Source of the DNA: a virus
Taxonomy: Duplodnaviria > Caudoviricetes
Reading direction: 5' to 3' (one strand)
DNA: 64,000 nucleotides
IMG/VR virus record: IMGVR_UViG_3300036868_000046
Span: 14,783-78,782 of that record
The translations under genes were made by a program, and so were the position numbers. The notes beneath the pieces are model-generated. The model did no database searches and was not told where the DNA came from. It saw only the letters and a list, made by a program, of their open reading frames with translations. Positions 5,598 through 43,591 of the stretch are shown piece by piece; position 1 is the first letter of the stretch, and each line of letters starts with the position of its first letter.

Positions 5598-5971
5598 TTG
5601 GCCTGCCTCAGCTTCTCGTCGATCACCGCGCGATCGATGAGCCGGTCGATGGCGCCGGCGTCGTCATCTTCCTCGAGTCCATCGAGCTCGTCGTCCGCAT
5701 GGACGTCGGCCGGGCGGGTCTCGTTGGCCAGGGCGACCCGGCCGATGTTCTCGATGGGTGGCGCTTTTTTGGGGGCGACGACGCTCATCGGCTCGACGCG
5801 CGCGGTCTTGGACAGCCGGTTGCCGACCACGTACTCCTTGAGCTTGTGGGCGGCGTCCCAGGACAGGCCCTCCCCCCAGAGCTTCACCCAGTCCTTGTCG
5901 CGGACGCGGTAGAGCATCCCCTCCTGCGGCACGAGCTTGACGATCTTCTGCGGCTTGTGGTGCGGTCTCAT
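5594..5971 (-). CDS. Hypothetical protein with acidic C-terminus
   Basis: ATG preceded by TAGGCT-N7; overlaps next gene by 4 nt. Confidence 0.6.
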   Translation of the reverse strand: MRPHHKPQKIVKLVPQEGMLYRVRDKDWVKLWGEGLSWDAAHKLKEYVVGNRLSKTARVEPMSVVAPKKAPPIENIGRVALANETRPADVHADDELDGLEEDDDAGAIDRLIDRAVIDEKLRQAK

Positions 5972-6475: not shown

Positions 6476-7090
6476 TCAGTTGGGGACGTTCGGCGACAGC
6501 GAGCCGTAGTCGTCATCGCCGATGATGTCCGACAGGTCGGAGAGGTCGTCGGTCGCGGATGTGGGAGGCGCTGCGGTGGGGGGACGGGGAGAGGGGGTGC
6601 TCATGCGCCCCGCGTCGTAGGCATCGTTGTAGGTGTACTCGTTGGGGTCGTCGGCCACCGGCCGCAGCGCCCGCATCTGGAGATGCGGAAGCCCGAGGTC
6701 GGCGTTCGGGTCCGCGGCCGGCAGCTGGGCGTTCGGGTCCGCGAGCATCCAGCCGAGGGACGGCACGTAGAGCTGGATGAGGTTCTGGATGGCGGCGATC
6801 GCGGCGCCGACCACGATCGGGGTGTGGTACTTCTCGAGCCACTTCCACTTGTGGGCGAGCAGCCACGCGGATAGGAACGCTCCGACGGCCGCAGCCGCGC
6901 CCGCGTGCTTGCCGATCGACGGTGCCCGTTTCGCCACCTGCTCGGTCGCGACCTTGGTGATGAACCGGGTCAGCGCGAACCCGGCGAAGCCGGGCCCGAT
7001 GAACTCGGCCAGGTCGGTCATGAGCGGGGGGTTATGTCGTGGCGCAGCCGCGGCCCTGCCGTATCTGCGCTTGAGCCTGGTTCGAGCCAT
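6476..7090 (-). CDS. Virion membrane/core protein with RHNP motif
   Basis: Basic N-terminus ending RHNP, 2-3 hydrophobic segments, acidic tail. Confidence 0.7.
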   Translation of the reverse strand: MARTRLKRRYGRAAAAPRHNPPLMTDLAEFIGPGFAGFALTRFITKVATEQVAKRAPSIGKHAGAAAAVGAFLSAWLLAHKWKWLEKYHTPIVVGAAIAAIQNLIQLYVPSLGWMLADPNAQLPAADPNADLGLPHLQMRALRPVADDPNEYTYNDAYDAGRMSTPSPRPPTAAPPTSATDDLSDLSDIIGDDDYGSLSPNVPN

Positions 7091-24462: not shown

Positions 24463-26184
24463 TCATCCGGTGCCGGTGAGCACCTCTCCCACCTTGCGAA
24501 GCCAGTTCTTGCCAGCCTGCGACATGAGGGGTGAGGTACCAGGCAATTTTGCCACCTTGCTCATGAACAAGTCAATGCCGTGCTCCTGAACCCACCCCAT
24601 GACCTCCACCGGCATGTGTGGCCTGGCGCTCTGGGCCACGATCTCCGGCTCCATCCGGTTGGAGAACGCGTTCTCCAGCAGCGACAGCATGGTCTTGATG
24701 GTGTCCGGTTCGATGGCGGGCACCTCGATCTGTGCCCCCTCGCTGGTCGTGACGATCTTGGGCTTGCGCCGCGCCGGCACGACCTGGTTGCCCACCTGGA
24801 TGAACTTCTGCCCGCTCTGGTCCTGCACGACCCGCGGACGCATCGTCGCGGGGTTCTGCATCATGCCCTCGGGCATGCCCGGCTGGCCGCCGCCCACGCC
24901 GGGAATGCGGCTGATGATCTTGCCGATGCCCTCGACGGCCGTGGGGCTCGTGAACGCCTCGACCACCTTGTCGATGCCGGACTTCTCGCCATCGCTCGAC
25001 CCGATCAGGTCCTTGAGCTTCTCGACCTCCTCGATCGAGTCGATGATCGATTTCTCCTTCTTCTCGCGGAGCTCCTTCACGTCCTGCCTGAGCTCCGTGT
25101 TGTCGCGGGTCAGCCGATCGATCTCGGCCTTGAGCGTGTGCGCCTGGACCTCCGCCGTCGTCTTCGCGGCGCTGAACGCTGTCTCGTGCGACAGCCGCAT
25201 CGCCGCGATCTCGCGCTCGTAGCTCATCTTGATCGACGCCGCGGCGTCATCGTGCGAGCGCCGCATGGCCTCGATCGTTCGGTCGTGGCGATCCTCGATG
25301 CGCTTGATGTCCTGCGTGAAGCCTTCCCGGAGCTGGCGGAGCTCGGATTCGTGCTGCGCGCGGAGCGCCGTCAGGCGGGCGCTGTCGCCCGTCATGAGCG
25401 TGTCCAGCATCTTGTCCCGGAACGGGTCGTCCGGCGGCTTCTGGTTGCGCAGCGCCGCGTTCTCGGTCTGGACCGCGTCGAGCTGACGTCGCAGCGCGGC
25501 CATCGCCTCGCGGTTCTGCTCGAACATCATCCGGATCGCGGGATCGATCTCCCGATCTGGCGGGCGCTCGTTCTTGATCTTGAGCTGCTCGGCCATCAAG
25601 TTGAACGCCGCCTTGGCGATGGTCGGTTCCTCATGGCTCATCGTCGGCGCGACGGTGGTCGGCTCGGCGGTCAGCGGAAGATGGTCGAGCCGCGGGTCCC
25701 CGGCGATGGTCAGGTGGCGATGGTTGACGAACTTCCACGAGCCGCGCTCGTTCTGGCGCATCACCTTGATGTGGTACTTGCCGCCGCCGAATTCCCTCTG
25801 GATCTGATCCTCGTCGGGAAACTCGTCGTAGCTGCGCAGGTGACCCTCGGTCGAGACGTCCTGCCCCGTCTTGGGGTTGCGCAGGTGCTTTGGCTCGGTC
25901 CGTCGCAACGCCACGCGAAAGACGCCGCCATCCGCGCTGAGGACCTGCAGCCAGTCACGCAGACCGGACTCCTCCTCGTCGCGAATGCGCTTCATGTTCG
26001 GCGACAGCTTCTCGCGGGCCGGCTCCTTGGCCGTCGGCGGAGCCGCCGGCGGAGGCGTCGTCTCCGCCGGCGCGTCCGGCACCGACTCGAGCGCGGTCTC
26101 CGAGTCAGGGACGGAGCTCGGCTCCGGCTCGTCGTCTGGCGGCTCGACGGGCTGCTCGACCTGCTTGACGGTGGCGCGCTTCAC
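24463..26184 (-). CDS. Large coiled-coil protein (possible scaffold or assembly factor)
   Basis: Pro/acidic N-terminus, long heptad region, helical C-terminal domain. Confidence 0.65.
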   Translation of the reverse strand: MKRATVKQVEQPVEPPDDEPEPSSVPDSETALESVPDAPAETTPPPAAPPTAKEPAREKLSPNMKRIRDEEESGLRDWLQVLSADGGVFRVALRRTEPKHLRNPKTGQDVSTEGHLRSYDEFPDEDQIQREFGGGKYHIKVMRQNERGSWKFVNHRHLTIAGDPRLDHLPLTAEPTTVAPTMSHEEPTIAKAAFNLMAEQLKIKNERPPDREIDPAIRMMFEQNREAMAALRRQLDAVQTENAALRNQKPPDDPFRDKMLDTLMTGDSARLTALRAQHESELRQLREGFTQDIKRIEDRHDRTIEAMRRSHDDAAASIKMSYEREIAAMRLSHETAFSAAKTTAEVQAHTLKAEIDRLTRDNTELRQDVKELREKKEKSIIDSIEEVEKLKDLIGSSDGEKSGIDKVVEAFTSPTAVEGIGKIISRIPGVGGGQPGMPEGMMQNPATMRPRVVQDQSGQKFIQVGNQVVPARRKPKIVTTSEGAQIEVPAIEPDTIKTMLSLLENAFSNRMEPEIVAQSARPHMPVEVMGWVQEHGIDLFMSKVAKLPGTSPLMSQAGKNWLRKVGEVLTGTG

Positions 26185-26633: not shown

Positions 26634-27121
26634 GGGGTCTCCTTGGGGGTCAGTGTCTCTTGAACGGAGCGATCGAACTCATCCGCCTCCGCACGAAGCT
26701 CGGCGTAGGCCCTGTCCCATGCTTGAACGAGCGCGGTATGGGACCTGAACTGCTTGGGGTCGGCGCACTCGTAGCGGTTGCACCGAAGGACCGGCGTGGA
26801 TCCCAGCGGGATCTCGATGCCCGGCGTGGGGTAGCAGTAGTGGTGATGCTCCTCGTGGAACACCGGCAGCGCCGTCACCACGGTCCCATCCGGCGTCACA
26901 CGCGCGAACCGCGACGCCGGCAGTCCATGGACCGGGAGGAGCACGCCGCTCGGCGTCGCAGCGTCTGCCTGGATGATGAAGTGATGGTAGTGCGAGCACC
27001 CGGCGGTGCAGAGCGACGGCCGCGGCCGGATCACGTCGCTCGACGAGGCGGTTGGTTGATGGTCTGGCGGCAGGTCGTCATCGTCATGGAGGTCTAACCT
27101 TGGCACCCTCCCATCATGCAC
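26630..27121 (-). CDS. Hypothetical Cys/His-rich protein (start uncertain)
   Basis: CTAGCSHYHH...CY...CNRYEC; overlaps next gene by 4 nt. Confidence 0.5.
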   Translation of the reverse strand: MHDGRVPRLDLHDDDDLPPDHQPTASSSDVIRPRPSLCTAGCSHYHHFIIQADAATPSGVLLPVHGLPASRFARVTPDGTVVTALPVFHEEHHHYCYPTPGIEIPLGSTPVLRCNRYECADPKQFRSHTALVQAWDRAYAELRAEADEFDRSVQETLTPKETP

Positions 27122-27238
27122 ACCTCAGTGGGAACTGCGTGGCGATTGCATGGGGATTCGATGGGAATTTCATGGGGGATCTGCGCACCTCCCTTGGCCA
27201 TGGGGCTGCCTTCCATGGCCAGCACCCCACAGGTAGAC

Positions 27239-27610
27239 GGCCTAACGGTGACACCAGCGGACGTGAGGCGCCTCATTTTCGCCCCGTTAGGGGCCTCACG
27301 GAGCCACCGTTAGGCGCCTCACGATGAGGTAATTCTACCGTTAGGGCGCCTCACGGTCGCCCAGGGCAGGCTAACCGCCCCACAGGGGCCAGGAGGGGCC
27401 AGGAGAGGCCCCCCAGCGCCGCCAGGCCCGCGCCGGGCCAGTCCCCCGGACTCGCGCCGGGGCCAACCCCAAGGCTCGCCCTGGCGACCTGGGCACCGTT
27501 AGGCGCCTCACGGTGAGGAATTCCTACGCGTAGAACGCGACGCGGCTCAAGTACGCGAACTCCCACGAGGTGCCACCCGGACTTCCCAGTGAGACTCCCC
27601 TACGCGTAGG
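27239..27610. promoter_or_regulatory. Cluster of imperfect palindromes in the divergent switch region
   Basis: CCGTTAGG(G)CGCCTCACG(G)-like units at 27284, 27307, 27338 and 27496; TGAGGCGCCTCA at 27264; CTACGCGTAG at 27524 and 27600. Confidence 0.7.
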
Positions 27611-27732
27611 GACGGACCCGGTTTCATAGTGAGGTCAGGCTGCAAACGCTTGAAAGCTTCAAGGCTGGATCTGGCAAGCTCGATGCAATACCGTTCTTCG
27701 ACCGGGCGAGGTTGCCCCGGGAAGGAGACGAG

Positions 27733-27954
27733 ATGCTGAATCTGGTGAGCTTCGAATCGTGGGACGACGTCCTCGCCGCCGCTCGGCGCGGCGATCGACT
27801 CTGGTACCACGCGCCACTCGACACCGCACCCCGGGCCATCGTGGTGCAGACGGTGTTCGAGAACGGCAAGATCCGCATCGATCCGATGTCCGCATCCGCA
27901 GACAACTTCACCGCGGACTGCGGCCATTTGCCCCGCTTCCGGCGCATGGGGTAA
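27733..27954 (+). CDS. Hypothetical early protein
   Basis: AAGGAG RBS, 73 aa. Confidence 0.6.
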   Translation: MLNLVSFESWDDVLAAARRGDRLWYHAPLDTAPRAIVVQTVFENGKIRIDPMSASADNFTADCGHLPRFRRMG

Positions 27955-28237
27955 CCCTCCGCCCCCCCCGGTCGTGAGGGTTCGGCGAGCGCCCGACACA
28001 CGTCGGGATCTCGCCAAGGTCTCACGGTCTCTCTGACAACCGAATAGCCCGAGACTCACGCCAGAGCAGCATTCCCCGGTGTCGCGCATGCCATGCGCGC
28101 ACCGGGCGCAGTCGAAACGCCGGACCACTCCCTTACCCGGAGCGCCGTGCTGCCGCGGACGTGGTCGTGAACGGGCAAGCAAGTTGTGACTTGCGAGAGC
28201 GGCGCGCGCCGATGCGCGCCCCTCATGGAGGTTACAA

Positions 28238-28516
28238 ATGAGAGTGCGCTTTCCGAGCATCGCCGATGTCGCGCAGAACTTGCGCGACATCAATGCCAAC
28301 GTCGAGGGGGAGTGCGACGTTCGGCTGTGCGTCTGGACAGATGGCACGTGGTGCGTGCGCTGGGGAGATGTGCAGTTCGATCCCAGCAGCGCCCCGTACT
28401 GTGGGGCCAGCGGTGTTCCCGGTGTCGTCGGCGGCAAGGTGCAGCGGTTCGACGCGCGCGCGATCGCGCGCGATCTGCTGGACCAGTGCGCAGAAATGCG
28501 CGCCCAGGACGAGTAG
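28238..28516 (+). CDS. Hypothetical early protein; its stop codon begins hammerhead 1
   Basis: GGAGG RBS; TAG at 28514-28516. Confidence 0.7.
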   Translation: MRVRFPSIADVAQNLRDINANVEGECDVRLCVWTDGTWCVRWGDVQFDPSSAPYCGASGVPGVVGGKVQRFDARAIARDLLDQCAEMRAQDE

Positions 28517-28577
28517 GCGAAACCGCGCCGAGCGCGGTCTGCAGGCCACCCCAAACCCTGCACTGACGAGCCTGGGG
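28514..28577 (+). ncRNA. Type II hammerhead ribozyme 1 (predicted cut after 28539)
   Basis: taggc-GAAAC-cgcg..cgcg-GTC-tgcagg..cctgca-CTGACGA-gcctg; loop I CCCCA pairs with tail TGGGG. Confidence 0.9.
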
Positions 28578-28588
28578 AGAACCTCGCA

Positions 28589-28657
28589 ATGTCCACAAAA
28601 GACTACAACCTCGATCAATCCCAACTACGGGCCAACACAGTGAGATCGCGCTTATGA
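28589..28657 (+). CDS. Possible 22-aa peptide
   Basis: GGAG RBS right after hammerhead 1; its stop overlaps the next ATG. Confidence 0.35.
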   Translation: MSTKDYNLDQSQLRANTVRSRL

Positions 28658-28905
28658 TGGAGCTTCTATGGTCTGAGGGATGGTCCGATGGTGTGACGTC
28701 CGCCGTAGTGTACCAGGCCAAATCCTGGCACGGTGCGTACCGAATCGTCCGCGCGGAGGGCGGATGCCGTGCGTGGTATACGCAATGGCGGGGGGCGTTA
28801 CCGCTGCAGACTATCAAGCTCGGCGATGCCCCGGACATGGGTCGCGCGCGAGCGCTATGCCAGTCTCATGCTCATGCCGTCAGATACGGATCTGACCCAA
28901 GGTAG
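28654..28905 (+). CDS. Hypothetical early protein
   Basis: Its TAG begins the half hammerhead. Confidence 0.55.
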   Translation: MMELLWSEGWSDGVTSAVVYQAKSWHGAYRIVRAEGGCRAWYTQWRGALPLQTIKLGDAPDMGRARALCQSHAHAVRYGSDPR

Positions 28906-28936
28906 GCGAAACCGCGCCGAGAGCGCGGTCTGCAGG
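28903..28936 (+). ncRNA. 5' half of a hammerhead (GAAAC, stem III, GTC, stem I 5' arm only)
   Basis: taggcgaaaccgcgccgagagcgcggtctgcagg, then 7 nt, then a full copy. Confidence 0.75.
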
Positions 28937-28943
28937 TCAGGAG

Positions 28944-29011
28944 TAGGCGAAACCGCGCCGAGAGCGCGGTCTGCGGGGGGGCACCCCTACCCCGCACTGA
29001 TGAGCCAGGGG
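28944..29011 (+). ncRNA. Type II hammerhead ribozyme 2 (predicted cut after 28971)
   Basis: Stem I tgcgggg/ccccgca, CTGATGA, stem II ggc/gcc, pseudoknot CCCCT/AGGGG. Confidence 0.9.
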
Positions 29012-29036
29012 ACAGGCCGACACCAGGAGAATCGCA

Positions 29037-29321
29037 ATGTTCGTCATTGTCTACGCCAATGAGGGCCCCGAACAGGGTACCGTATACCTGAAGTGGGAGC
29101 TTCGTGATAACGAGCCAATGGAGGCGCGCAAGTTCGCCGACCGAGTAGCCGGTTTTTTGGGGACAGAGGTGGTGGAGCCTTCGGGATACATCCCGAACTG
29201 CTGTGGTGATATCAGGGTGGAGTTCACCGAGCACGAGCCTACGGTGGATGCCGATGGGCGCTACCTGGGATCCGTCTGCATATGGAGCGGCGAGAGCTAC
29301 TACTTCTCGCGGGATGCATGA
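29037..29321 (+). CDS. Hypothetical early protein
   Basis: AGGAG RBS directly after hammerhead 2. Confidence 0.7.
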   Translation: MFVIVYANEGPEQGTVYLKWELRDNEPMEARKFADRVAGFLGTEVVEPSGYIPNCCGDIRVEFTEHEPTVDADGRYLGSVCIWSGESYYFSRDA

Positions 29322-29372
29322 AAGCTTACGATGACGGAGGCGGAGTACCACGGGGGCACGGGGCACGTGGAC

Positions 29373-29441
29373 TAGGCGAAACCGCGCAGTGAGCGCGGTC
29401 TGCAGGTGATGACGCCCTACCCTGCACTGATGAGCATGGGC
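29373..29441 (+). ncRNA. Type II hammerhead ribozyme 3 (predicted cut after 29400; weak stem II)
   Basis: Intact core; stem I tgcagg/cctgca; pseudoknot GCCC/GGGC; stem II only 2 bp. Confidence 0.75.
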
Positions 29442-29458
29442 TAAAGAGGAAGTCAACG

Positions 29459-30022
29459 ATGACACCGAAACACAAGCTCTGTGAGGCCATGTCCGAGTAC
29501 GGCCTCACGATGGACTGGACGTTCATCCCATTCCGGGGGGACCGCAAGGAGCGGCGCCTGCAGTGGGATATCACGCTGTATCACAGGAGTGCGCCCAGGA
29601 TCGGGGATGACACCCTCCCAAACGACGTCATCGTAACGAGATACGAGGCAGGGATCGGTCACTGTCCCAGCTACCCCGCCTATGGCGGGGTACCCACCGT
29701 CGCACAAGATTCCGCCATCGATTTCGAGGTGACCACAGGGTACCAGGCCCGCCCGCCACATGGCGGTGGTGCGGGTGACCGATTCGAGCGCGGAGCTCGG
29801 ATCGATCCAGATGTCGCCGAAGTGATGCACAGCCTACTCCTGGATGCGGAGGCGATCGATCACGCCTCGTTCGAGGCGTGGGCGGAGGAGTTCGGCTACA
29901 ACACCGACAGCCGGGCTGCAGAGCGCACCTACAAAGCGTGCCTCCGGATCGGGCTGGCCATTCGCGCCGCGGTGGGCGATGAGGCGTTGCGGGCCCTACG
30001 CTCCGCGGCGGAGGGCATGTGA
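29459..30022 (+). CDS. Hypothetical phage protein
   Basis: GAGGA RBS; LLLDAEAID...FEAWAEEFGYNTDSR.AE.TY..C motif recalled from phage proteins. Confidence 0.75.
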   Translation: MTPKHKLCEAMSEYGLTMDWTFIPFRGDRKERRLQWDITLYHRSAPRIGDDTLPNDVIVTRYEAGIGHCPSYPAYGGVPTVAQDSAIDFEVTTGYQARPPHGGGAGDRFERGARIDPDVAEVMHSLLLDAEAIDHASFEAWAEEFGYNTDSRAAERTYKACLRIGLAIRAAVGDEALRALRSAAEGM

Positions 30023-30228
30023 GACCCGCGAAAAGGTACGAGGTGGTTTGCCTCACATCGTTCGACCACGTCACCCCGGCACAGGAGGTCGAGATATGTG
30101 GTCGAACCAAGGTCATGCCCGAGCAGACCTTCCATTACGAGAATGGCCAGCGGATTGACCTCGGCAGTGCGCGGCGGCGCAAGGAGTTCATGGCGTACCA
30201 TGCCGGGCGTTTTGCCATCGCGGACTAG
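30019..30228 (+). CDS. Hypothetical protein
   Basis: GTGA overlap with the upstream gene; its stop lies inside motif A. Confidence 0.6.
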   Translation: MRPAKRYEVVCLTSFDHVTPAQEVEICGRTKVMPEQTFHYENGQRIDLGSARRRKEFMAYHAGRFAIAD

Positions 30229-30285
30229 GGCCGTTGTGCCCATCGACACCATCACCCCAGCGGTGGTGGATCGACCGACACAACA
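30214..30285 (+). ncRNA. Unassigned structured RNA motif, copy A (pseudoknot plus hairpin)
   Basis: GGGC/GCCC stem, GTTGTG/CACAAC crossing pair and a long inserted hairpin; near-identical copy at 30834. Confidence 0.6.
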
Positions 30286-30300
30286 TCCACAGGACATGAC

Positions 30301-30618
30301 ATGACGAACAAGATCTACAGCATCGTCCACAGCAACGGCATCACCGAGCGGCTGCCAGAGGGCAGCACGTACGCGGACGCGCTCGCCGCCGTCCGCGAGA
30401 CGTACACCGACCCCGAGATCGGTCACGACGGTGACATCGCGGATGGCGGCGATACTACTCTGGTGTGGCGAGACGAGGCGTCCGCCAGGGATGACGACGG
30501 CTGCTTTGCCGTTTGCTCGATCCGCGTGTCGCACCCCGAGCCGCCAGGCCGAGACGATCAGTCCGACATGCCAGAATTCATGCCCGTCCATGGACAGGGC
30601 TACGTGCGGCGAGCCTAG
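30301..30618 (+). CDS. Hypothetical protein; paralog of 32441..32713
   Basis: LP.GSTY.DAL..VR..YT...IGHDGDI..GG..TL.WRDE..A..DDG..AVC.I shared with 32441..32713. Confidence 0.75.
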   Translation: MTNKIYSIVHSNGITERLPEGSTYADALAAVRETYTDPEIGHDGDIADGGDTTLVWRDEASARDDDGCFAVCSIRVSHPEPPGRDDQSDMPEFMPVHGQGYVRRA

Positions 30619-30633
30619 GCGGACCAGCCGACC

Positions 30634-30822
30634 ATGCGGCGCGAACAATTGGACTCGTGGGTCCTGGCCCTGTGCAGCGAGGCGATGGCCGTCGACCCGA
30701 TCGCCACCGAGTGCGTGATCCGCGCACTGACCGGCGGCCACGAATCGTTTTGCCCGCAACCACATCCCTCCGAGCGCCTCCATCGTGCCGCCGCTGCATT
30801 TCTGAGGATCGCCCGCCTCTGA
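30634..30822 (+). CDS. Hypothetical protein
   Basis: 62-aa ORF between 30618 and motif B. Confidence 0.5.
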   Translation: MRREQLDSWVLALCSEAMAVDPIATECVIRALTGGHESFCPQPHPSERLHRAAAAFLRIARL

Positions 30823-30833
30823 CTCGGCGGCAC

Positions 30834-30904
30834 GCCATCGCGGACTAGGGCCGTTGTGCCCATCGACACCATCACCCAACGGTGGTGGGTCGACCGACAC
30901 AACA
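30834..30904 (+). ncRNA. Unassigned structured RNA motif, copy B
   Basis: Differs from copy A only in the hairpin loop and one position that improves pairing. Confidence 0.6.
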
Positions 30905-30918
30905 GCGGATCAAACAAC

Positions 30919-31338
30919 ATGACTAGCCATCGCGACCTCTATTTCCGGGGCAAGGCGGTACTCCCTCCGACGCAGCCCTCGGCGCCCGCCCCGGCATCCC
31001 TGCGCCGCGCTCCCGCGCACGAGCGCCACCCCCGAACGGTTCCGACACATCCCGCACGGCAGATGTCCCCACTGTGGGCGCCGAGTCCACAATCCGCCGA
31101 GGTCCGCCTGGCCGACCTCGAGACTGCCCGGGTGGTGGTCCGACGCGCCAGCCTCGCCTACGCCATCCCGCCCATCGCGCCGGAGGCGCCGGTGTCGCAC
31201 CCGGCGTATGTCCACGGAGAGGACCTCACCGCGCGAGATCACCGTGAGCCTTTCACGCTCGTGCGCGCGATGGGGTACGTTCTCGCTGTGGGCGCCCCTG
31301 GCGCCGGGCTGCTCTGGATGCTGATCCACCGCCTATAG
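30919..31338 (+). CDS. Pro-rich protein with C-terminal TM
   Basis: ATG right after motif B; its TAG begins hammerhead 4. Confidence 0.6.
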   Translation: MTSHRDLYFRGKAVLPPTQPSAPAPASLRRAPAHERHPRTVPTHPARQMSPLWAPSPQSAEVRLADLETARVVVRRASLAYAIPPIAPEAPVSHPAYVHGEDLTARDHREPFTLVRAMGYVLAVGAPGAGLLWMLIHRL

Positions 31339-31402
31339 GCGAAACCGCGCGGGCGAGCGCGGTCTGTGGGGGCTACCCCTACCCACACTGATGAGCCAGG
31401 GG
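31336..31402 (+). ncRNA. Type II hammerhead ribozyme 4 (predicted cut after 31364)
   Basis: Stem I tgtggg/cccaca (compensatory changes), CTGATGA, pseudoknot CCCCT/AGGGG. Confidence 0.9.
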
Positions 31403-31416
31403 ATTCAGGAGATCAC

Positions 31417-31632
31417 ATGCTCAAGGTCACGCAACGCATGATCAATGCCGTCGCCATCGCGACGGATGAGGCGAATCGCAAGATCGCCGCGGAACTGAAC
31501 ACATGGACCACGGGCCCCCGTGCCGGGTCCCAACAGGCCAAGGTCGGCACGCACCGCAGCGTGAAACACTATCGGCGCACGCTCGTCTCTCGTCACCCCG
31601 AGGTCACGGACGCGGCCAGGGTGAAGCTGTGA
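31417..31632 (+). CDS. Hypothetical early protein
   Basis: AGGAG RBS right after hammerhead 4. Confidence 0.65.
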   Translation: MLKVTQRMINAVAIATDEANRKIAAELNTWTTGPRAGSQQAKVGTHRSVKHYRRTLVSRHPEVTDAARVKL

Positions 31633-32066
31633 AGGTCACCACCCGTGAACAGTTCATCGCTTTGTTCGGCCGCGGGCGGCCGGAGGCGATGGAGTTCGAG
31701 AACTCCGTCATTCAGGCCATCGAGCGCGAGCATTTGCCGGACGACGCGCTTGCTGTGGTAGATGGTGGCGATGGTTCCGCGGCGTATTGGGACTGGCTCG
31801 CGAGCCAGGTCGAGCCGCAGTGCACGTGTGAATGCGGTAAATGGTCTGGGACGCGGTGCCGTTGGGGAGGACAGCGGTCCGACACGGTCATCGTGGAGTT
31901 CATGCCGGAGGCCCTCCGGGCGAGCCACGTCGCCGCTGGAAACAGCGGCACGTACCCCCACAACGGGGCGGAGCGTATCCGCGTGTCGCGCGACTGCGCG
32001 CAGTGGATGCGCGAGGAGGACCCGGAGTGGTGCTCCGAAGTTCGCCATCTGGCTCCTCGTCGATGA
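31629..32066 (+). CDS. Hypothetical Cys-containing protein
   Basis: GTGA overlap; CxC...C...C motif. Confidence 0.65.
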   Translation: MKVTTREQFIALFGRGRPEAMEFENSVIQAIEREHLPDDALAVVDGGDGSAAYWDWLASQVEPQCTCECGKWSGTRCRWGGQRSDTVIVEFMPEALRASHVAAGNSGTYPHNGAERIRVSRDCAQWMREEDPEWCSEVRHLAPRR

Positions 32067-32388
32067 CACGTGGGGTGTCGTCCGGTTCGCGGATGGCCGC
32101 GCCGACGTGCGCGCCGCCGTCGAGCGCGTCGCCGAGCTGTATCGCATCGGCGGAACGCCAGAGCAGTTTCGCGCCGCCGCCGCCGACGACGCCAGGGCCG
32201 CCGACGACGCCAGGGCCGCCGACGACGCCAGGGCCGCCGACGACGCCAGGGCCGCCGACGACGCCAGGGCCGCCGACGACGCCGTCGCCAGGGCCGTCGA
32301 CGCCGCCAGTTTCGCCTGGAACTGGGACGCCGCCTGGGTAGTGGCAGCGCGTGACAAGCTCCTTGAACTGCTCGGGGATTGCCCATGA
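32035..32388 (+). pseudogene. 3' fragment of a gene homologous to 63568..>64000
   Basis: 124 bp match 63877-64000 with 3 mismatches; no in-frame start with RBS of its own. Confidence 0.65.
32182..32283 (+). repeat. 18-bp tandem repeat gccgacgacgccagggcc (5 copies plus a partial; encodes ADDARA)
   Basis: Directly visible. Confidence 0.95.
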
Positions 32389-32440
32389 CCACCCGCCCGC
32401 CCGGCCAAAGCGGACCAACGCCCGAGCTACAATAGGACGC

Positions 32441-32713
32441 ATGAAAAACTACCGAATCATCCATAGCCACGGGCCAGTCGAGGTGCTGCCGGCGGGCAGC
32501 ACGTACCAGGATGCACTCGACAGAGTTCGCATGGCCTATACGCGTGCCGTCGTTGGTCACGATGGCGATATCTCGCAAGGCGGGCAGGTGACGCTCGCGT
32601 GGCGAGACGAGGAGACCGCCGCGGCGGACGACGGTAGCCGCGCAGTGTGCATGATCACGCTGCATACCGTAGACGTGCCCGCGGTGATCGCCCTCTGGAT
32701 GTTCTCGTTCTAG
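32441..32713 (+). CDS. Hypothetical protein; paralog of 30301..30618
   Basis: TACAAT-N7-ATG; its TAG begins hammerhead 5. Confidence 0.75.
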   Translation: MKNYRIIHSHGPVEVLPAGSTYQDALDRVRMAYTRAVVGHDGDISQGGQVTLAWRDEETAAADDGSRAVCMITLHTVDVPAVIALWMFSF

Positions 32714-32778
32714 GCGAAACCACGCGATTCTTGCGTGGTCTGCGGGGCATGCCCTACCCGCACTGAAGATGCCAGGGC
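32711..32778 (+). ncRNA. Type II hammerhead ribozyme 5 (predicted cut after 32740; extra U after CUGAAGA)
   Basis: Stem III cacgc/gcgtg (compensatory), stem I tgcggg/cccgca, pseudoknot GCCCT/AGGGC. Confidence 0.8.
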
Positions 32779-32797
32779 CAAAAAGGAAGAGAAGAAC

Positions 32798-33835
32798 ATG
32801 ACCCTCACAAGACGGGATTGCGCAGCGGACTTACCGGAGGGGACGGACCCCCTCATCGTCGATCTGCACCTGACGGCCACGGCCGCCGACCGTGTTCGAT
32901 CGCGATGCCAGACCGTGAGCAGCCACGCGCGCGCGTGGCTCCAGCTGGAGCCGGACGACGATGGCGCGGAGGCGCGGAGGCGGCTCCGCGCGCTGCTGGC
33001 CATCGAGCTGGGCGGCACCGGCGGCCCCATGGGATTTGGGGTCGACGGTGGCAATCGCACCGCGCGGATGTCGTGGGCGGCGCGACTCGGCAAGGGCCGC
33101 CGCCACGCCTCCGATGGCCCAGCGTGGGACGATGCGGTCCGCCGCGTGGCCACCTCCCTCGGGGAGGGCGAGGTCACCCCTGCCGATGTCGGTGAGATCG
33201 CCGGGCGATGTGGCCCGGATGACCTCGAGTGGCCGCTCGCCTACGCGCTGCGCCGCGCGCATGCCTGCCGCCTGGATGTGGACCAGGCGGCGCTGTGGGC
33301 GACATGCGCGCGGGTGTCCGCGACGCTCGCCGAGCCGGACTCCGGCGCTGGCCGCCTCGCCGCGCGCTACTCTCTGCGTACCAAGCCCCGGCTGCGTACG
33401 GCTTCCCTGTCACTTCGGTACCAGGATCCGGATCGGGCAGCTGATGCCGAACCAGGCCTCAGCTCGCTGAGTGGGGCGAACTCCCTCATCGATGAGCTCG
33501 TCGAGGACTTCACGGGGGATCCTGCCCCCGATTTCCTCGAGCTCGAGGAAAAGCGCGTCCAGACGTGGGTCACGTCCTCGCCCGACTGTGGCGAGGCACA
33601 GCTGCGCATCACCTGCGACGCGCCCATGAATCAGTACACGGTGGAGCTGCAAAGCCGGGCAGCGCTGCACCCGGCAGCGCTGCGCCTCATCGAAGCCGCA
33701 TGGATCCTCCGTCACGCGGGTGATGAGATCTGGACCACGGACGTCATCGTGGCCCACGAGGCCATGACCGAGATGCACCCGGATATGCTGCGCGCCGAGC
33801 GCGCGGCGTGGGATATCGCCGCCGATGCGGTCTGA
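32798..33835 (+). CDS. Hypothetical protein
   Basis: Purine-rich RBS after hammerhead 5; 345-aa ORF. Confidence 0.65.
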   Translation: MTLTRRDCAADLPEGTDPLIVDLHLTATAADRVRSRCQTVSSHARAWLQLEPDDDGAEARRRLRALLAIELGGTGGPMGFGVDGGNRTARMSWAARLGKGRRHASDGPAWDDAVRRVATSLGEGEVTPADVGEIAGRCGPDDLEWPLAYALRRAHACRLDVDQAALWATCARVSATLAEPDSGAGRLAARYSLRTKPRLRTASLSLRYQDPDRAADAEPGLSSLSGANSLIDELVEDFTGDPAPDFLELEEKRVQTWVTSSPDCGEAQLRITCDAPMNQYTVELQSRAALHPAALRLIEAAWILRHAGDEIWTTDVIVAHEAMTEMHPDMLRAERAAWDIAADAV

Positions 33836-34280
33836 TACCCCCCGCTGCGAGCTCCCCATCAGGTTCCGCAGGGTCAGTGCCGGGGTGTACTGCTCGTACA
33901 TGGAGGTCGGTGGGACGCCGGTGTTCACCATCGTGTCGGCATCGGTCAGGGAACGATGCTGGCTCACGACGCACGCGTCGCTGCGCACGCTGGCCCCGTG
34001 CGACTCCCTGGAGGACGCTTGTCGCCAGGTCAACGCGCTGGTCGCCGACGCGCTGGTGAATGCTTTCCGGGTCGTCGCCGCGTGGTCGCACGAGGCGTTC
34101 ATCGCCTCCGAGCTCGCCGCCGCGCGGCGGGAGAGGCGCGCCCTCCTCGTGGAGCACGTCATGGACGTGCTACCTCAATCGTCCATGCCTGACGCGCCCG
34201 ACCATCTGCGACCGGAGGTCGTGCGCGCGCTCGCCGAGCGCGTGGTCGACGCCATCGCACCGGCGCTCTGCCCTCGCTGA
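33825..34280 (+). CDS. Hypothetical protein
   Basis: Overlaps the upstream stop; start uncertain. Confidence 0.55.
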   Translation: MRSDTPRCELPIRFRRVSAGVYCSYMEVGGTPVFTIVSASVRERCWLTTHASLRTLAPCDSLEDACRQVNALVADALVNAFRVVAAWSHEAFIASELAAARRERRALLVEHVMDVLPQSSMPDAPDHLRPEVVRALAERVVDAIAPALCPR

Positions 34281-42859: not shown

Positions 42860-43591
42860 ATGGCGGATGCCAACTTCGATGCCGCGGTCGCCCAGGCCAG
42901 CGCGGTCTACGACCAGCTGGGCGAATGGATCGACCGCTACCACGGCGGCATTCCCCCGGGGTTCATCGCCGCGGCCATTACCCACGAGAGCGGCGGCGAC
43001 TTCAACGCGCCAGGTGACCCCGTGCTGGGCGAGGTCGGCTACCTCCAGGTCGCGGCCTACGTGCCGCCCCTCTTCGGGTACCCGGCCGAGGCCCGGATGG
43101 ACCCGGAGAGCAACATCGCGATCGGGGTTCTCGAATACGAGATGGAGGCGGCCTACTGGGCCGCCCGTTACCCCGAGGTGATGCTCGGGACCGCCGACAG
43201 CTGGAAGCTTGCACGTCTGGCCTTCGCTATCGGCCGCGCTGGCGCCTACCAGCTGGCGGACATGGCCCGGGCCAGCCAGGGCGGTCTGACGTCTGGTGAC
43301 GTCTACCACGACATCGTCCGGGCCACCTCCGCGGCGGGCGGCGTGGCCCTGGGCAGCCAGAGCGCCGCCAAAGTGCTGTCCCGGGTGGTCGACATCGACC
43401 GGCAGTGGGCGATCGGCCAGGCGGTGAATGGCGCCCCGCCGGGGCCTCCGCTCTACATCCCGGACCCGCCGGCCGGCCCCTACACCATCCCGGAGGACGC
43501 CGCCCCCTATTTCTCCCAGCAGATTCCGGTTACCATCGTGCTGGCGATCGGCCTGGGGTTGGTGGCGTGGCTGCTCTACAAAGGCTACTGA
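42860..43591 (+). CDS. Membrane-anchored lytic transglycosylase (SLT/lysozyme-like)
   Basis: AAITHESGGD (catalytic E), GYLQV, DPESNIAIG; C-terminal TM. Confidence 0.8.
   Translation: MADANFDAAVAQASAVYDQLGEWIDRYHGGIPPGFIAAAITHESGGDFNAPGDPVLGEVGYLQVAAYVPPLFGYPAEARMDPESNIAIGVLEYEMEAAYWAARYPEVMLGTADSWKLARLAFAIGRAGAYQLADMARASQGGLTSGDVYHDIVRATSAAGGVALGSQSAAKVLSRVVDIDRQWAIGQAVNGAPPGPPLYIPDPPAGPYTIPEDAAPYFSQQIPVTIVLAIGLGLVAWLLYKGY

What the first reader, a model, noticed from the sequence alone, without database searches (positions are those of the whole stretch)
28540..29400. Ribozyme-bounded units could form gene-carrying circular RNAs; the half copy completes a split hammerhead around a gene
Cleavage at consecutive ribozymes releases units of 432 nt (28540-28971), 429 nt (28972-29400), 1964 nt and 1376 nt. 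Each starts with the 3' half of a hammerhead and ends with the 5' half, so end-joining would rebuild a full ribozyme, as in retrozymes and viroid-like RNAs. The half copy at 28903-28936 (taggc...GTC-tgcagg) is complementary to the cctgca-CTGACGA-gcctg arm of copy 1 about 330 nt upstream. It could form a bipartite hammerhead with the ORF inside loop II, giving an alternative cut at 28930. The first two units differ by only 3 nt in length.
Basis: inference. Interest (0 to 1): 0.75.

Follow-up and report, generated by a model that had tools for sequence, protein, structure and literature searches.

The report
Phage hammerhead array with one truncated copy
Five self-cutting hammerhead RNAs sit between small early genes of an uncultivated 79-kb virus and most likely chop one long transcript into linear messages, an arrangement known since 2011; the extra "half" ribozyme looks like a leftover of a lost copy, and nothing supports RNA circles.

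Summary
Five type II hammerheads lie on the + strand, cutting after 28539, 28971, 29400, 31364 and 32740. A truncated 5' half lies at 28903-28943. Unit lengths are 432, 429, 1964 and 1376 nt, as stated. The complementarity between the half copy and hammerhead 1 is real, but it follows from homology, because the half copy carries the same stem I strand as copies 1 and 3.

Neither functional reading gains support. Units 1 and 2 are unrelated in sequence and fold no better than shuffled or background RNA. Related viruses have units of about 320 to 2770 nt, with the genes in a different order. The virus encodes no RtcB, no other RNA ligase family searched, and no reverse transcriptase. No relative has a half-plus-full arrangement. 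A homologue of the 83-aa gene in another contig runs straight into a hammerhead 5' part, so the half copy is probably that gene's own ribozyme, now truncated.

Perreault et al. 2011 described such clusters and looked for circles without finding them. This scan has reached the same verdict for similar arrays on other DNA. Verdict: a new member of a known kind. Circular RNA and the split ribozyme remain untested speculation.

The parts
28514..28580 (+). Type II hammerhead HH1. Core is CUGACGA ... GAA, with the cut after C28539. Pseudoknot CCCCA (28549-53) / UGGGG (28573-77) overlaps the GGGGAG Shine-Dalgarno.
   Evidence: RF02276 32 bits; R1 82.5 bits; sequence
28589..28657 (+). 22-codon mini-ORF whose TGA overlaps the ATG of the next ORF (ATGA). 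Coding status is uncertain.
   Evidence: Sequence; codon score -0.13
28654..28905 (+). 83-aa gene of unknown function. Its TAG stop is the first three bases of the half copy. Codon usage is atypical, but homologues exist.
   Evidence: HMMER hits P0001 (E 3e-16), P0003 (5.6e-9), P0004-P0006; codon score 0.025 against 0.22-0.66 for the other array genes
28903..28943 (+). Truncated hammerhead containing only the 5' half: stem II strand GGC, GAA, the stem III hairpin, C17 at 28930 and stem I strand UGCAGG. The first 31 nt are identical to HH2, and the first 40 nt are 90% identical to HH3. It has no stem I partner, no CUGANGA and no GCC of its own.
   Evidence: Alignment A1; repeat family D3; R1 25.8 bits; same gene-ribozyme junction in L170
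28944..29014 (+). Type II hammerhead HH2, cut after C28971. Pseudoknot CCCCU / AGGGG.
   Evidence: RF02276 44.8 bits, above the gathering score; R1 87 bits
29037..29321 (+). 94-aa gene of unknown function. It is conserved at 40-67% identity in about 30 viral and metagenome contigs.
29373..29446 (+). Type II hammerhead HH3, cut after C29400. Stem II is only 2 bp (GGC/GCA). Pseudoknot GCCC / GGGC.
   Evidence: RF02276 40.5 bits; R1 82.5 bits
29459..31338 (+). Unit 3 cargo: five small genes (29459-30022, 30019-30228, 30301-30618, 30634-30822, 30919-31338).
   Evidence: Codon scores 0.22-0.66; only 29459-30022 hits a family, phrog_4273 of unknown function
31336..31405 (+). Type II hammerhead HH4, cut after C31364. 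Stem I is UGUGGG/CCCACA, compensatory relative to the other copies.
   Evidence: RF02276 32 bits; R1 85.5 bits
31417..32713 (+). Unit 4 cargo: small genes 31417-31632, 31629-32066, a repeat-containing ORF around 32030-32388, and 32441-32713 (a paralogue of 30301-30618).
32711..32783 (+). Type II hammerhead HH5, cut after C32740. Stem III carries a compensatory change (ACCACGC/GCGUGGU). The core is CUGAAGA followed by an extra U before GCC.
   Evidence: RF02276 29.9 bits; R1 71.5 bits; the same GAUGCC form recurs in relatives

Best explanation
This is an array of five active-looking type II, pseudoknot-stabilised hammerhead ribozymes. It sits at the head of the rightward, presumably early, operon of a complete 78.8-kb GC-rich uncultivated virus. 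Each ribozyme starts on the stop codon of the upstream ORF (UAG-GCGAAAC) and ends just before the ribosome-binding site of the next gene. Self-cleavage of the long transcript should therefore give linear gene-length or block-length mRNAs. Each product would begin with a 5'-OH stem I hairpin and end with the stem III hairpin carrying a 2',3'-cyclic phosphate, which would uncouple the stabilities of the individual messages. The half copy at 28903-28943 is the remnant of the hammerhead that originally followed the 83-aa gene. A DNA rearrangement removed its 3' half, and probably a following gene, and placed it 7 nt upstream of HH2. Its complementarity to HH1 is inherited, not designed. Shown here: the motifs, cut sites, covariation, gene junctions and comparative pattern. 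Inferred: cleavage in vivo, the stabilising effect of the end hairpins, and the deletion history.
For: The motifs and cut sites are established.

Stems I and III covary across 24 related hammerheads: 96.8% of cells are paired, 10 of 16 pairs show double changes, and 0 of 500 shuffles reach the observed score. The loop I / 3' tail pseudoknot covaries among the five copies (CCCCU/AGGGG, CCCCA/UGGGG, GCCCU/AGGGC, GCCC/GGGC; sequence, alignment A2). This matches the feature that Perreault 2011 showed to be needed for fast cleavage.

No sigma-70-type promoter or intrinsic terminator is predicted in 26900-34000, and all genes from 27712 onward are on the + strand.

Related viruses (L008/L151, L146, L150, L154, L171) have the same kind of array, but with different unit lengths and a shuffled gene order. 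Two relatives that carry the 94-aa gene have no hammerhead at all.

Copies decay within single lineages: the L008 5915 copy has lost part of its core (CUGAUG-CC), while L146 6789 and L150 3650 keep it intact.

The homologue of the 83-aa gene in L170 ends ...DPRK-TGA-AGGCGAAACCGCGCC..GCGCGGTCTGC. This is the same gene-hammerhead junction as ...DPR-TAG-GCGAAACC in the window.

HH2 is preceded by CAGGAG-TAG, which resembles the CAGGACGAG-TAG gene end before HH1.

Perreault 2011 describes exactly such clusters and proposes mRNA processing.
Against: No expression or cleavage data exist for this virus. Three of the five copies score below Rfam's gathering threshold, although they are clear with the local model. 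The L170 contig ends inside its hammerhead, so it is not shown that the ancestral copy was complete. The deletion scenario is a reconstruction without an intact intermediate. Nearest-neighbour folding does not exclude the split ribozyme: the forced bipartite fold lies 1.5-8.3 kcal/mol above the MFE, depending on the transcript ends.
Confidence: 0.75

Rival explanations
1. Circular mRNAs: after double cleavage, the 5'-OH and 2',3'-cyclic phosphate ends of a unit are joined. The joining is done either by a host RtcB-type ligase or by the reverse hammerhead reaction. This gives gene-carrying circles that rebuild a chimeric hammerhead at the junction.
For: The end chemistry and geometry allow it. 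Stem II (GGC/GCC) is the same in nearly all copies, so every chimeric junction would be a complete hammerhead. Units 1 and 2 are 432 and 429 nt, both multiples of 3.
Against: Perreault 2011 looked for circular or spliced products from such clusters and detected none. The virus has no RtcB, RNA_ligase, T4 Rnl1-type or 2'-5' ligase family, and no reverse transcriptase. The unit ends are held together only by a 3-bp stem II. Circular folds of units 1 and 2 are no more stable than shuffles or background windows. Every unit has in-frame stop codons, so there is no endless ORF. Unit lengths and contents are not conserved in relatives. A rebuilt hammerhead would cut itself again.
Confidence: 0.07
2. 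Functional split hammerhead: once HH1 has cut itself, the part it keeps re-engages the half copy 330 nt downstream. That part comprises CCUGCA, CUGACGA, GCC and the pseudoknot. It cuts after 28930, trimming 41 nt from the 3' end of the unit 1 mRNA.
For: All core nucleotides are present between the two pieces: 6 bp of stem I and 3-5 bp of stem II. The pseudoknot partners stay on the enzyme piece. In the model, the forced bipartite fold is only 1.5 kcal/mol above the MFE for the doubly cut unit, and the long-range stem I pair has probability 0.88 in that context. A split hammerhead exists in rodent lectin mRNAs (Martick 2008, summarised in PMC2920678).
Against: The result depends on the transcript ends. 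HH1's CCUGCA is already paired to an identical UGCAGG tethered by an 11-nt loop, which forms about 360 nt earlier in transcription. The match is not specific to HH1, because HH3 is equally complementary. No relative has a half copy. The cut would leave an mRNA ending in the same hairpin, so little would be gained. The L170 junction indicates a remnant.
Confidence: 0.07
3. The half copy acts as a modulator of HH2. Because its stem III strands are identical to those of HH2, the two can cross-pair into one long hairpin. This fold prevents HH2 from forming, lowering or delaying cleavage between the 83-aa and 94-aa genes.
For: In the 28890-29020 ensemble, the cross-paired fold takes 37% of the population and lies 0.5 kcal/mol above the MFE.
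Against: Co-transcriptional folding favours the two local hairpins. The arrangement is not conserved. The effect is predicted by a thermodynamic model only, without the pseudoknot.
Confidence: 0.08

Closest known systems
Clustered hammerhead ribozymes flanking single genes or short gene blocks in prophages (Perreault et al. 2011, PLoS Comput Biol, PMC3088659)
   Same: Both have several same-strand hammerheads in intergenic positions of a phage operon, cargo genes that vary between relatives, and the type II form with a loop I / 3' tail pseudoknot. mRNA processing is the proposed role in both. The circular-product idea was already raised there and not confirmed.
   Different: This array sits in a novel, uncultivated 79-kb virus lineage with almost no PHROG matches. 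The stop codon lies inside every ribozyme. One copy is truncated next to a full one.
Type II hammerhead family, Rfam RF02276
   Same: The core, the topology (stems I and III closed, stem II open and 2-3 bp long) and the pseudoknot all match.
   Different: Three copies fall below the gathering score. HH5 and many copies in relatives carry an extra U between A9 and stem II (CUGANGA-U-GCC).
Retrozymes and viroid-like circular RNAs with hammerheads (de la Pena et al. 2020, PMC7761336)
   Same: Tandem hammerheads on one strand release units whose ends could be ligated.
   Different: Retrozymes and viroid-like RNAs use type III or type I hammerheads. They are non-coding repeats of one homologous sequence, fold into highly paired rods or branches, and accumulate as circles. 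Here the ribozymes are type II, the units are unrelated protein-coding cassettes of about 430 to 1964 nt, the two units tested (1 and 2) have no excess structure, and the virus has no reverse transcriptase.
Discontinuous (split) hammerhead in rodent lectin mRNA 3' UTRs (Martick et al. 2008, as summarised in PMC2920678)
   Same: Substrate and enzyme segments lie on one transcript, hundreds of nucleotides apart.
   Different: In the rodent case the enzyme segment has no substrate strand of its own, and the paper reports the split form in several mammalian mRNAs. Here the 'enzyme' is the used half of a complete hammerhead with its own tethered substrate strand, and the arrangement is unique to one genome.
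RNase III processing of the phage T7 early polycistronic mRNA (own knowledge, not tested here)
   Same: Intercistronic cuts yield monocistronic early mRNAs with hairpin-protected ends.
   Different: Here the RNA cuts itself. A host enzyme may still act at the separate 72-nt hairpin element seen at 30214 and 30834.

Membership tests
Type II hammerhead ribozyme (RF02276) | Conserved core: C3 U4 G5 A6 N7 G8 A9, G12 A13 A14, A15.1-U16.1, H17 | tested here: met
   All five copies have CUGA(U/C/A)GA, GAA, the A-U closing pair of stem III and C17. The half copy has only G12-A14, stem III and C17.
Type II hammerhead ribozyme (RF02276) | Score at or above the family's gathering threshold (37 bits) | tested here: inconclusive
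   HH2 scores 44.8 and HH3 40.5 bits, above the threshold. HH1 and HH4 score 32 and HH5 29.9 bits, below it, with E-values of 0.006-0.02 in 25 kb.
Type II hammerhead ribozyme (RF02276) | Stems I and III closed by loops, stem II open, and helices supported by covariation | tested here: met
   Across 24 related copies, 96.8% of cells are paired and 10 of 16 pairs show changes on both sides; 0 of 500 shuffles reach the observed score. Caveat: the alignment was fitted to the model.
Type II hammerhead ribozyme (RF02276) | Pseudoknot between loop I and the 3' tail after stem II (Perreault 2011) | tested here: met
   The pairing is 4-5 bp in all five copies and shows compensatory changes, read. No formal statistic was run.
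Type II hammerhead ribozyme (RF02276) | Self-cleavage at C17 | not testable with these tools
   This needs in vitro transcription or end mapping.
Phage hammerhead clusters (Perreault 2011) | Several hammerheads on one strand flanking genes of a phage or prophage operon, with variable cargo | tested here: met
   Five copies lie within 4.3 kb of a complete virus record with direct terminal repeats. Relatives carry arrays with shuffled cargo.
Retrozyme / viroid-like circular RNA | Type III or type I hammerheads | tested here: not met
   All copies are type II.
Retrozyme / viroid-like circular RNA | Units are repeats of one homologous, non-coding sequence | tested here: not met
   Units share only the ribozymes. 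Each unit carries protein genes with homologues elsewhere.
Retrozyme / viroid-like circular RNA | Highly base-paired rod-like or branched fold | tested here: not met
   Circular MFE z-scores are -0.36 and -0.99, against a mean of -0.69 for 12 background windows.
Retrozyme / viroid-like circular RNA | Covalently closed circles detected | not testable with these tools
   No RNA data are available. Perreault 2011 reports none for comparable clusters.
Discontinuous hammerhead (Martick 2008 type) | Separated enzyme and substrate segments that together give a full core and stems | tested here: met
   Bases 28557-28574 plus 28903-28936 supply all core positions, 6 bp of stem I and 3-5 bp of stem II.
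Discontinuous hammerhead (Martick 2008 type) | Arrangement conserved among related sequences | tested here: not met
   No half-plus-full arrangement, and no orphan half, was found in the related arrays or in about 100 IMG/VR loci.
Discontinuous hammerhead (Martick 2008 type) | Split fold favoured over competing local folds | tested here: inconclusive
   The bipartite fold lies 1.5 to 8.3 kcal/mol above the MFE, and the pair probability ranges from 0.88 to 4e-4 depending on transcript ends.

The most novel reading that the evidence does not exclude
The retained enzyme half of an already self-cleaved hammerhead (HH1) is re-used in cis on a substrate-only half site at the end of the same cistron. 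This would be the first split, two-turnover hammerhead in a prokaryotic virus. Separately, the units could be circularised by a host RtcB into translatable circular mRNAs.
Probability: 0.07. Interest if true: 0.6.

Novelty: new member of a known kind. Interest (0 to 1): 0.2.

Why it matters
Taken as it stands, this is one more example, in a very divergent soil-type virus lineage, of ribozyme-punctuated early operons. It adds two small points. First, the hammerhead travels with the 3' end of its gene, with the stop codon inside the ribozyme. Second, copies are lost, truncated or decay in single lineages, which fits hammerheads marking the boundaries of shuffled gene cassettes. If circles or a re-used split ribozyme were shown experimentally, that would be a new mode of gene expression in prokaryotic viruses. 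Nothing found here raises the odds of that.

Tried and rejected
- An exact DNA pattern for this stem III in IMG/VR gave no hit.
- blastn of 28200-33000 against cultured phages gave only a low-complexity hit to Skermania phage SPI1. tblastn of the 573-aa protein encoded at 24463-26184 (- strand) gave no hit.
- PHROG and Pfam searches of the array proteins and of ten minus-strand proteins gave almost nothing.
- The protein 29459-30022 found no related viral locus.
After requiring a stem III hairpin, all the fetched loci other than the window were chance matches or simple repeats.
- R1 weak hits at 6972-7034, 33789-33847 and 43011-43111 are not hammerheads. The first two were read and lack a core; the third was judged from its score of 7.9 bits only.
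- I considered that unit 1 might be non-coding, because it has no GC3 or codon signal. I rejected this after the full HMMER search found homologues.
- An alternative hammerhead made of the half copy plus HH2's 3' half lies 9 kcal/mol above the MFE and was rejected.
- The half copy's chimeric make-up (HH2-type stem III plus UGCAGG) equals the predicted circle or tandem-duplication junction of unit 1 for only 6 nt. HH3 matches for 7 nt, so this is not evidence for circles.
- Genome-contig scans gave no relative of the 94-aa gene, and only scattered single hammerheads in unrelated MAGs. The host remains unknown.

Full report
**Context.** The window is bases 14783-78782 of a 78,782-bp IMG/VR virus record with direct terminal repeats, rated complete. 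It has about 66% GC. Genes from about 4.7 kb to 27.1 kb run on the minus strand, and genes from 27.7 kb onward run on the plus strand. The finding therefore lies at the head of the rightward operon, just after a divergent intergenic region. No sigma-70-type promoter or intrinsic terminator is predicted between 26900 and 34000.

**Observation.** Rfam's Hammerhead_II model (RF02276) hits five places on the + strand:
- 28945-29014 (44.8 bits) and 29374-29446 (40.5 bits), both above the gathering score of 37.
- 31337-31405 and 28515-28577 (32 bits each), and 32712-32783 (29.9 bits), all below it.

A covariance model built from the five copies (R1) finds only these five plus a partial match at 28903-28942 (25.8 bits). 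This holds in the window and in the whole virus. Counting on the sequence, the cleavage-site cytosines are 28539, 28971, 29400, 31364 and 32740.

The helices covary among the copies. Stem I is UGCAGG/CCUGCA, UGCGGGG/CCCCGCA, UGUGGG/CCCACA or UGCGGG/CCCGCA. Stem III is ACCGCGC/GCGCGGU, but ACCACGC/GCGUGGU in HH5. Across 24 related hammerheads, 96.8% of cells pair, 10 of 16 pairs have changes on both sides, and no shuffle out of 500 reaches the observed score. That alignment was fitted to the model, which is a caveat.

The loop I / 3' tail pseudoknot also covaries: CCCCU/AGGGG, CCCCA/UGGGG, GCCCU/AGGGC and GCCC/GGGC. Perreault et al. 2011 showed this pseudoknot to be needed for fast cleavage.

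Each ribozyme begins with the TAG that closes the upstream ORF and ends a few bases before a Shine-Dalgarno sequence and ATG.

**The half copy.** Bases 28903-28943 align with the 5' half of a hammerhead: the stem II strand, GAA, the stem III hairpin, C17 at 28930, then UGCAGG. The first 31 nt are identical to HH2. The first 40 nt are 90% identical to HH3 (family D3).

The same six bases are equally complementary to HH3, and 5 of 6 to HH2 and HH5. The match to HH1 is therefore a consequence of homology and not a specific pairing.

**Is the split hammerhead plausible?** Nearest-neighbour folding gives no clear answer.
- For the doubly cut unit (28540-28971), the long-range stem I pair has probability 0.88, and the forced bipartite hammerhead lies 1.5 kcal/mol above the MFE.
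- For the other three transcript boundaries the probability falls to 0.19, 0.014 and 4e-4.

Several mechanistic points count against it. The partner strand is already paired to an identical UGCAGG that is tethered by an 11-nt loop. That hairpin forms about 360 nt earlier in transcription. Docking would depend on a 3-bp stem II. A cut at 28930 would leave an mRNA ending in the same kind of hairpin, so little would be gained. An alternative hammerhead using HH2's 3' half lies 9 kcal/mol above the MFE. The same calculation shows that the duplicated stem III strands can cross-pair (37% of the local ensemble), which could at most dampen HH2.

**What the half copy most likely is.** The 83-aa ORF (28654-28905) has poor codon statistics: a score of 0.025 against 0.22-0.66 for the other array genes, and GC3 of 0.67. 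It has no k-mer-level homologue. However, a full HMMER search found relatives (P0001 at 3e-16, P0003 at 5.6e-9, P0004), and a profile search added P0005 and P0006. These align over the whole length, so the gene is real.

In the contig that carries P0003 (L170), the gene ends ...GQDPRK-TGA. It runs straight into AGGCGAAACCGCGCCAATCGCGCGGTCTGC, where the contig ends. This is the same gene-ribozyme junction as ...GSDPR-TAG-GCGAAACCGCGCC... in the window. The half copy is therefore best read as this gene's own downstream hammerhead.

HH2 is preceded by CAGGAG-TAG, which resembles the CAGGACGAG-TAG gene end in front of HH1. I infer a deletion that ran from the stem I loop of the gene's hammerhead to the last codons of a following gene. 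This history is an inference, because no intact intermediate was found.

**Comparative picture.**
- A related complete virus (L008 = L142 = L151, 86 kb) has five hammerheads of the same subclass. It shares five proteins with this region at 37-58% identity, but in a different order relative to the ribozymes. Its unit lengths are about 687, 1275, 1754 and 2770 nt.
- Further relatives found through the 94-aa gene (alignment A5) also carry arrays: L146, L150, L154 and L155. In L154 the homologue is flanked by two hammerheads about 320 nt apart.
- Two relatives with the 94-aa gene have no type II hammerhead anywhere in their records, which are rated 40% and 98% complete.
- The L008 copy at 5915 has lost part of its core (CUGAUG-CC), whereas the orthologous copies in L146 and L150 are intact. 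Copies therefore do decay.
- No relative, and none of about 100 other IMG/VR loci fetched with a loose two-half pattern, shows a half next to a full copy.

**Circular RNA reading.** Joining the ends of any unit would rebuild a complete, chimeric hammerhead. In this topology only the 3-bp stem II links the two halves, and stem II is the same in nearly all copies. That follows from tandem type II ribozymes and is not evidence for circles. Against circles:
- Units 1 and 2 share no sequence or protein similarity.
- Their circular folds are no more stable than dinucleotide shuffles (z -0.36 and -0.99) or 12 background windows (mean -0.69).
- Their ORFs have in-frame stops.
- The virus encodes none of PF01139 (RtcB), PF09414, PF09511, PF13563 or PF00078.
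- Unit boundaries are not conserved in relatives.

Perreault et al. 2011 wrote that such clusters imply processing of long phage transcripts into operon-length or gene-length mRNAs. They also wrote that spliced or circular products were conceivable, but that they were unable to detect either. I found no later paper showing circles from phage hammerhead arrays. Earlier notes of this scan on other genomes reached the same verdict for similar arrays. I treat those notes as leads only.

**Verdict.** The array is a new member of a known kind. The half copy is most likely a truncated remnant. The split ribozyme and the circular mRNAs remain low-probability ideas that only RNA-level experiments can settle.

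Noticed in passing
window 30214-30290 and 30834-30910; L008 6566-6648, L146 7443-7525, L150 4304-4386: A conserved structured element of about 72 nt. It is a long imperfect hairpin with outer helix GUUGUG/CACAAC and a covarying apical helix, and it sits between a stop codon and the next ribosome-binding site inside unit 3. The two window copies are 96% identical. Copies in relatives keep the fold, with 3 compensatory pairs. It has no Rfam match and is unrelated to the virus's CRISPR repeat. It could be an RNase III-type processing site or an undescribed RNA motif in the same intercistronic niche as the hammerheads.
   Followed up: partly
L008 5915-5980 versus L146 6789-6856 and L150 3650-3717: One hammerhead of the related 86-kb virus has lost three core bases (CUGAUG-CC in place of CUGAUGA-UGCC), whereas the orthologous copies in two sister contigs are intact. 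This is a naturally inactivated array member.
   Followed up: yes
window 32759-32769 (HH5); L008 3953, 4640, 7669; L146; L150: A recurrent variant has an extra U between A9 of the core and the stem II strand (CUGANGA-U-GCC). It is the majority form in the related viruses.
   Followed up: partly
window 30301-30618 and 32441-32713: Two paralogous small proteins (54% identity over 80 aa) are encoded in different ribozyme-bounded units.
   Followed up: partly
window 32172-32299: An 18-nt tandem repeat (CGACGACGCCAGGGCCGC, 5-6 copies) lies inside an ORF of unit 4. It encodes repeated AADDAR in one frame. The start codon of this ORF is unclear.
   Followed up: no
window 27305-27609: Operator-like direct repeats (CACCGTTAGGCGCCTCACG..., 2-3 copies, spacing 189 and 76 nt) lie in the divergent intergenic region upstream of the rightward operon.
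   Followed up: no
window 28570-28591: In HH1 the pseudoknot strand UGGGG overlaps the only Shine-Dalgarno-like sequence (GGGGAG) of the following 22-codon mini-ORF. That mini-ORF is coupled by an ATGA overlap to the 83-aa gene. The ribozyme's tertiary fold and translation initiation may therefore compete.
   Followed up: no
L154 269-916: A distant relative of the 94-aa gene is flanked by type II hammerheads of another subclass (stem II GGUC/GACC, with no evident pseudoknot). Three ribozymes lie within 650 nt.
   Followed up: partly
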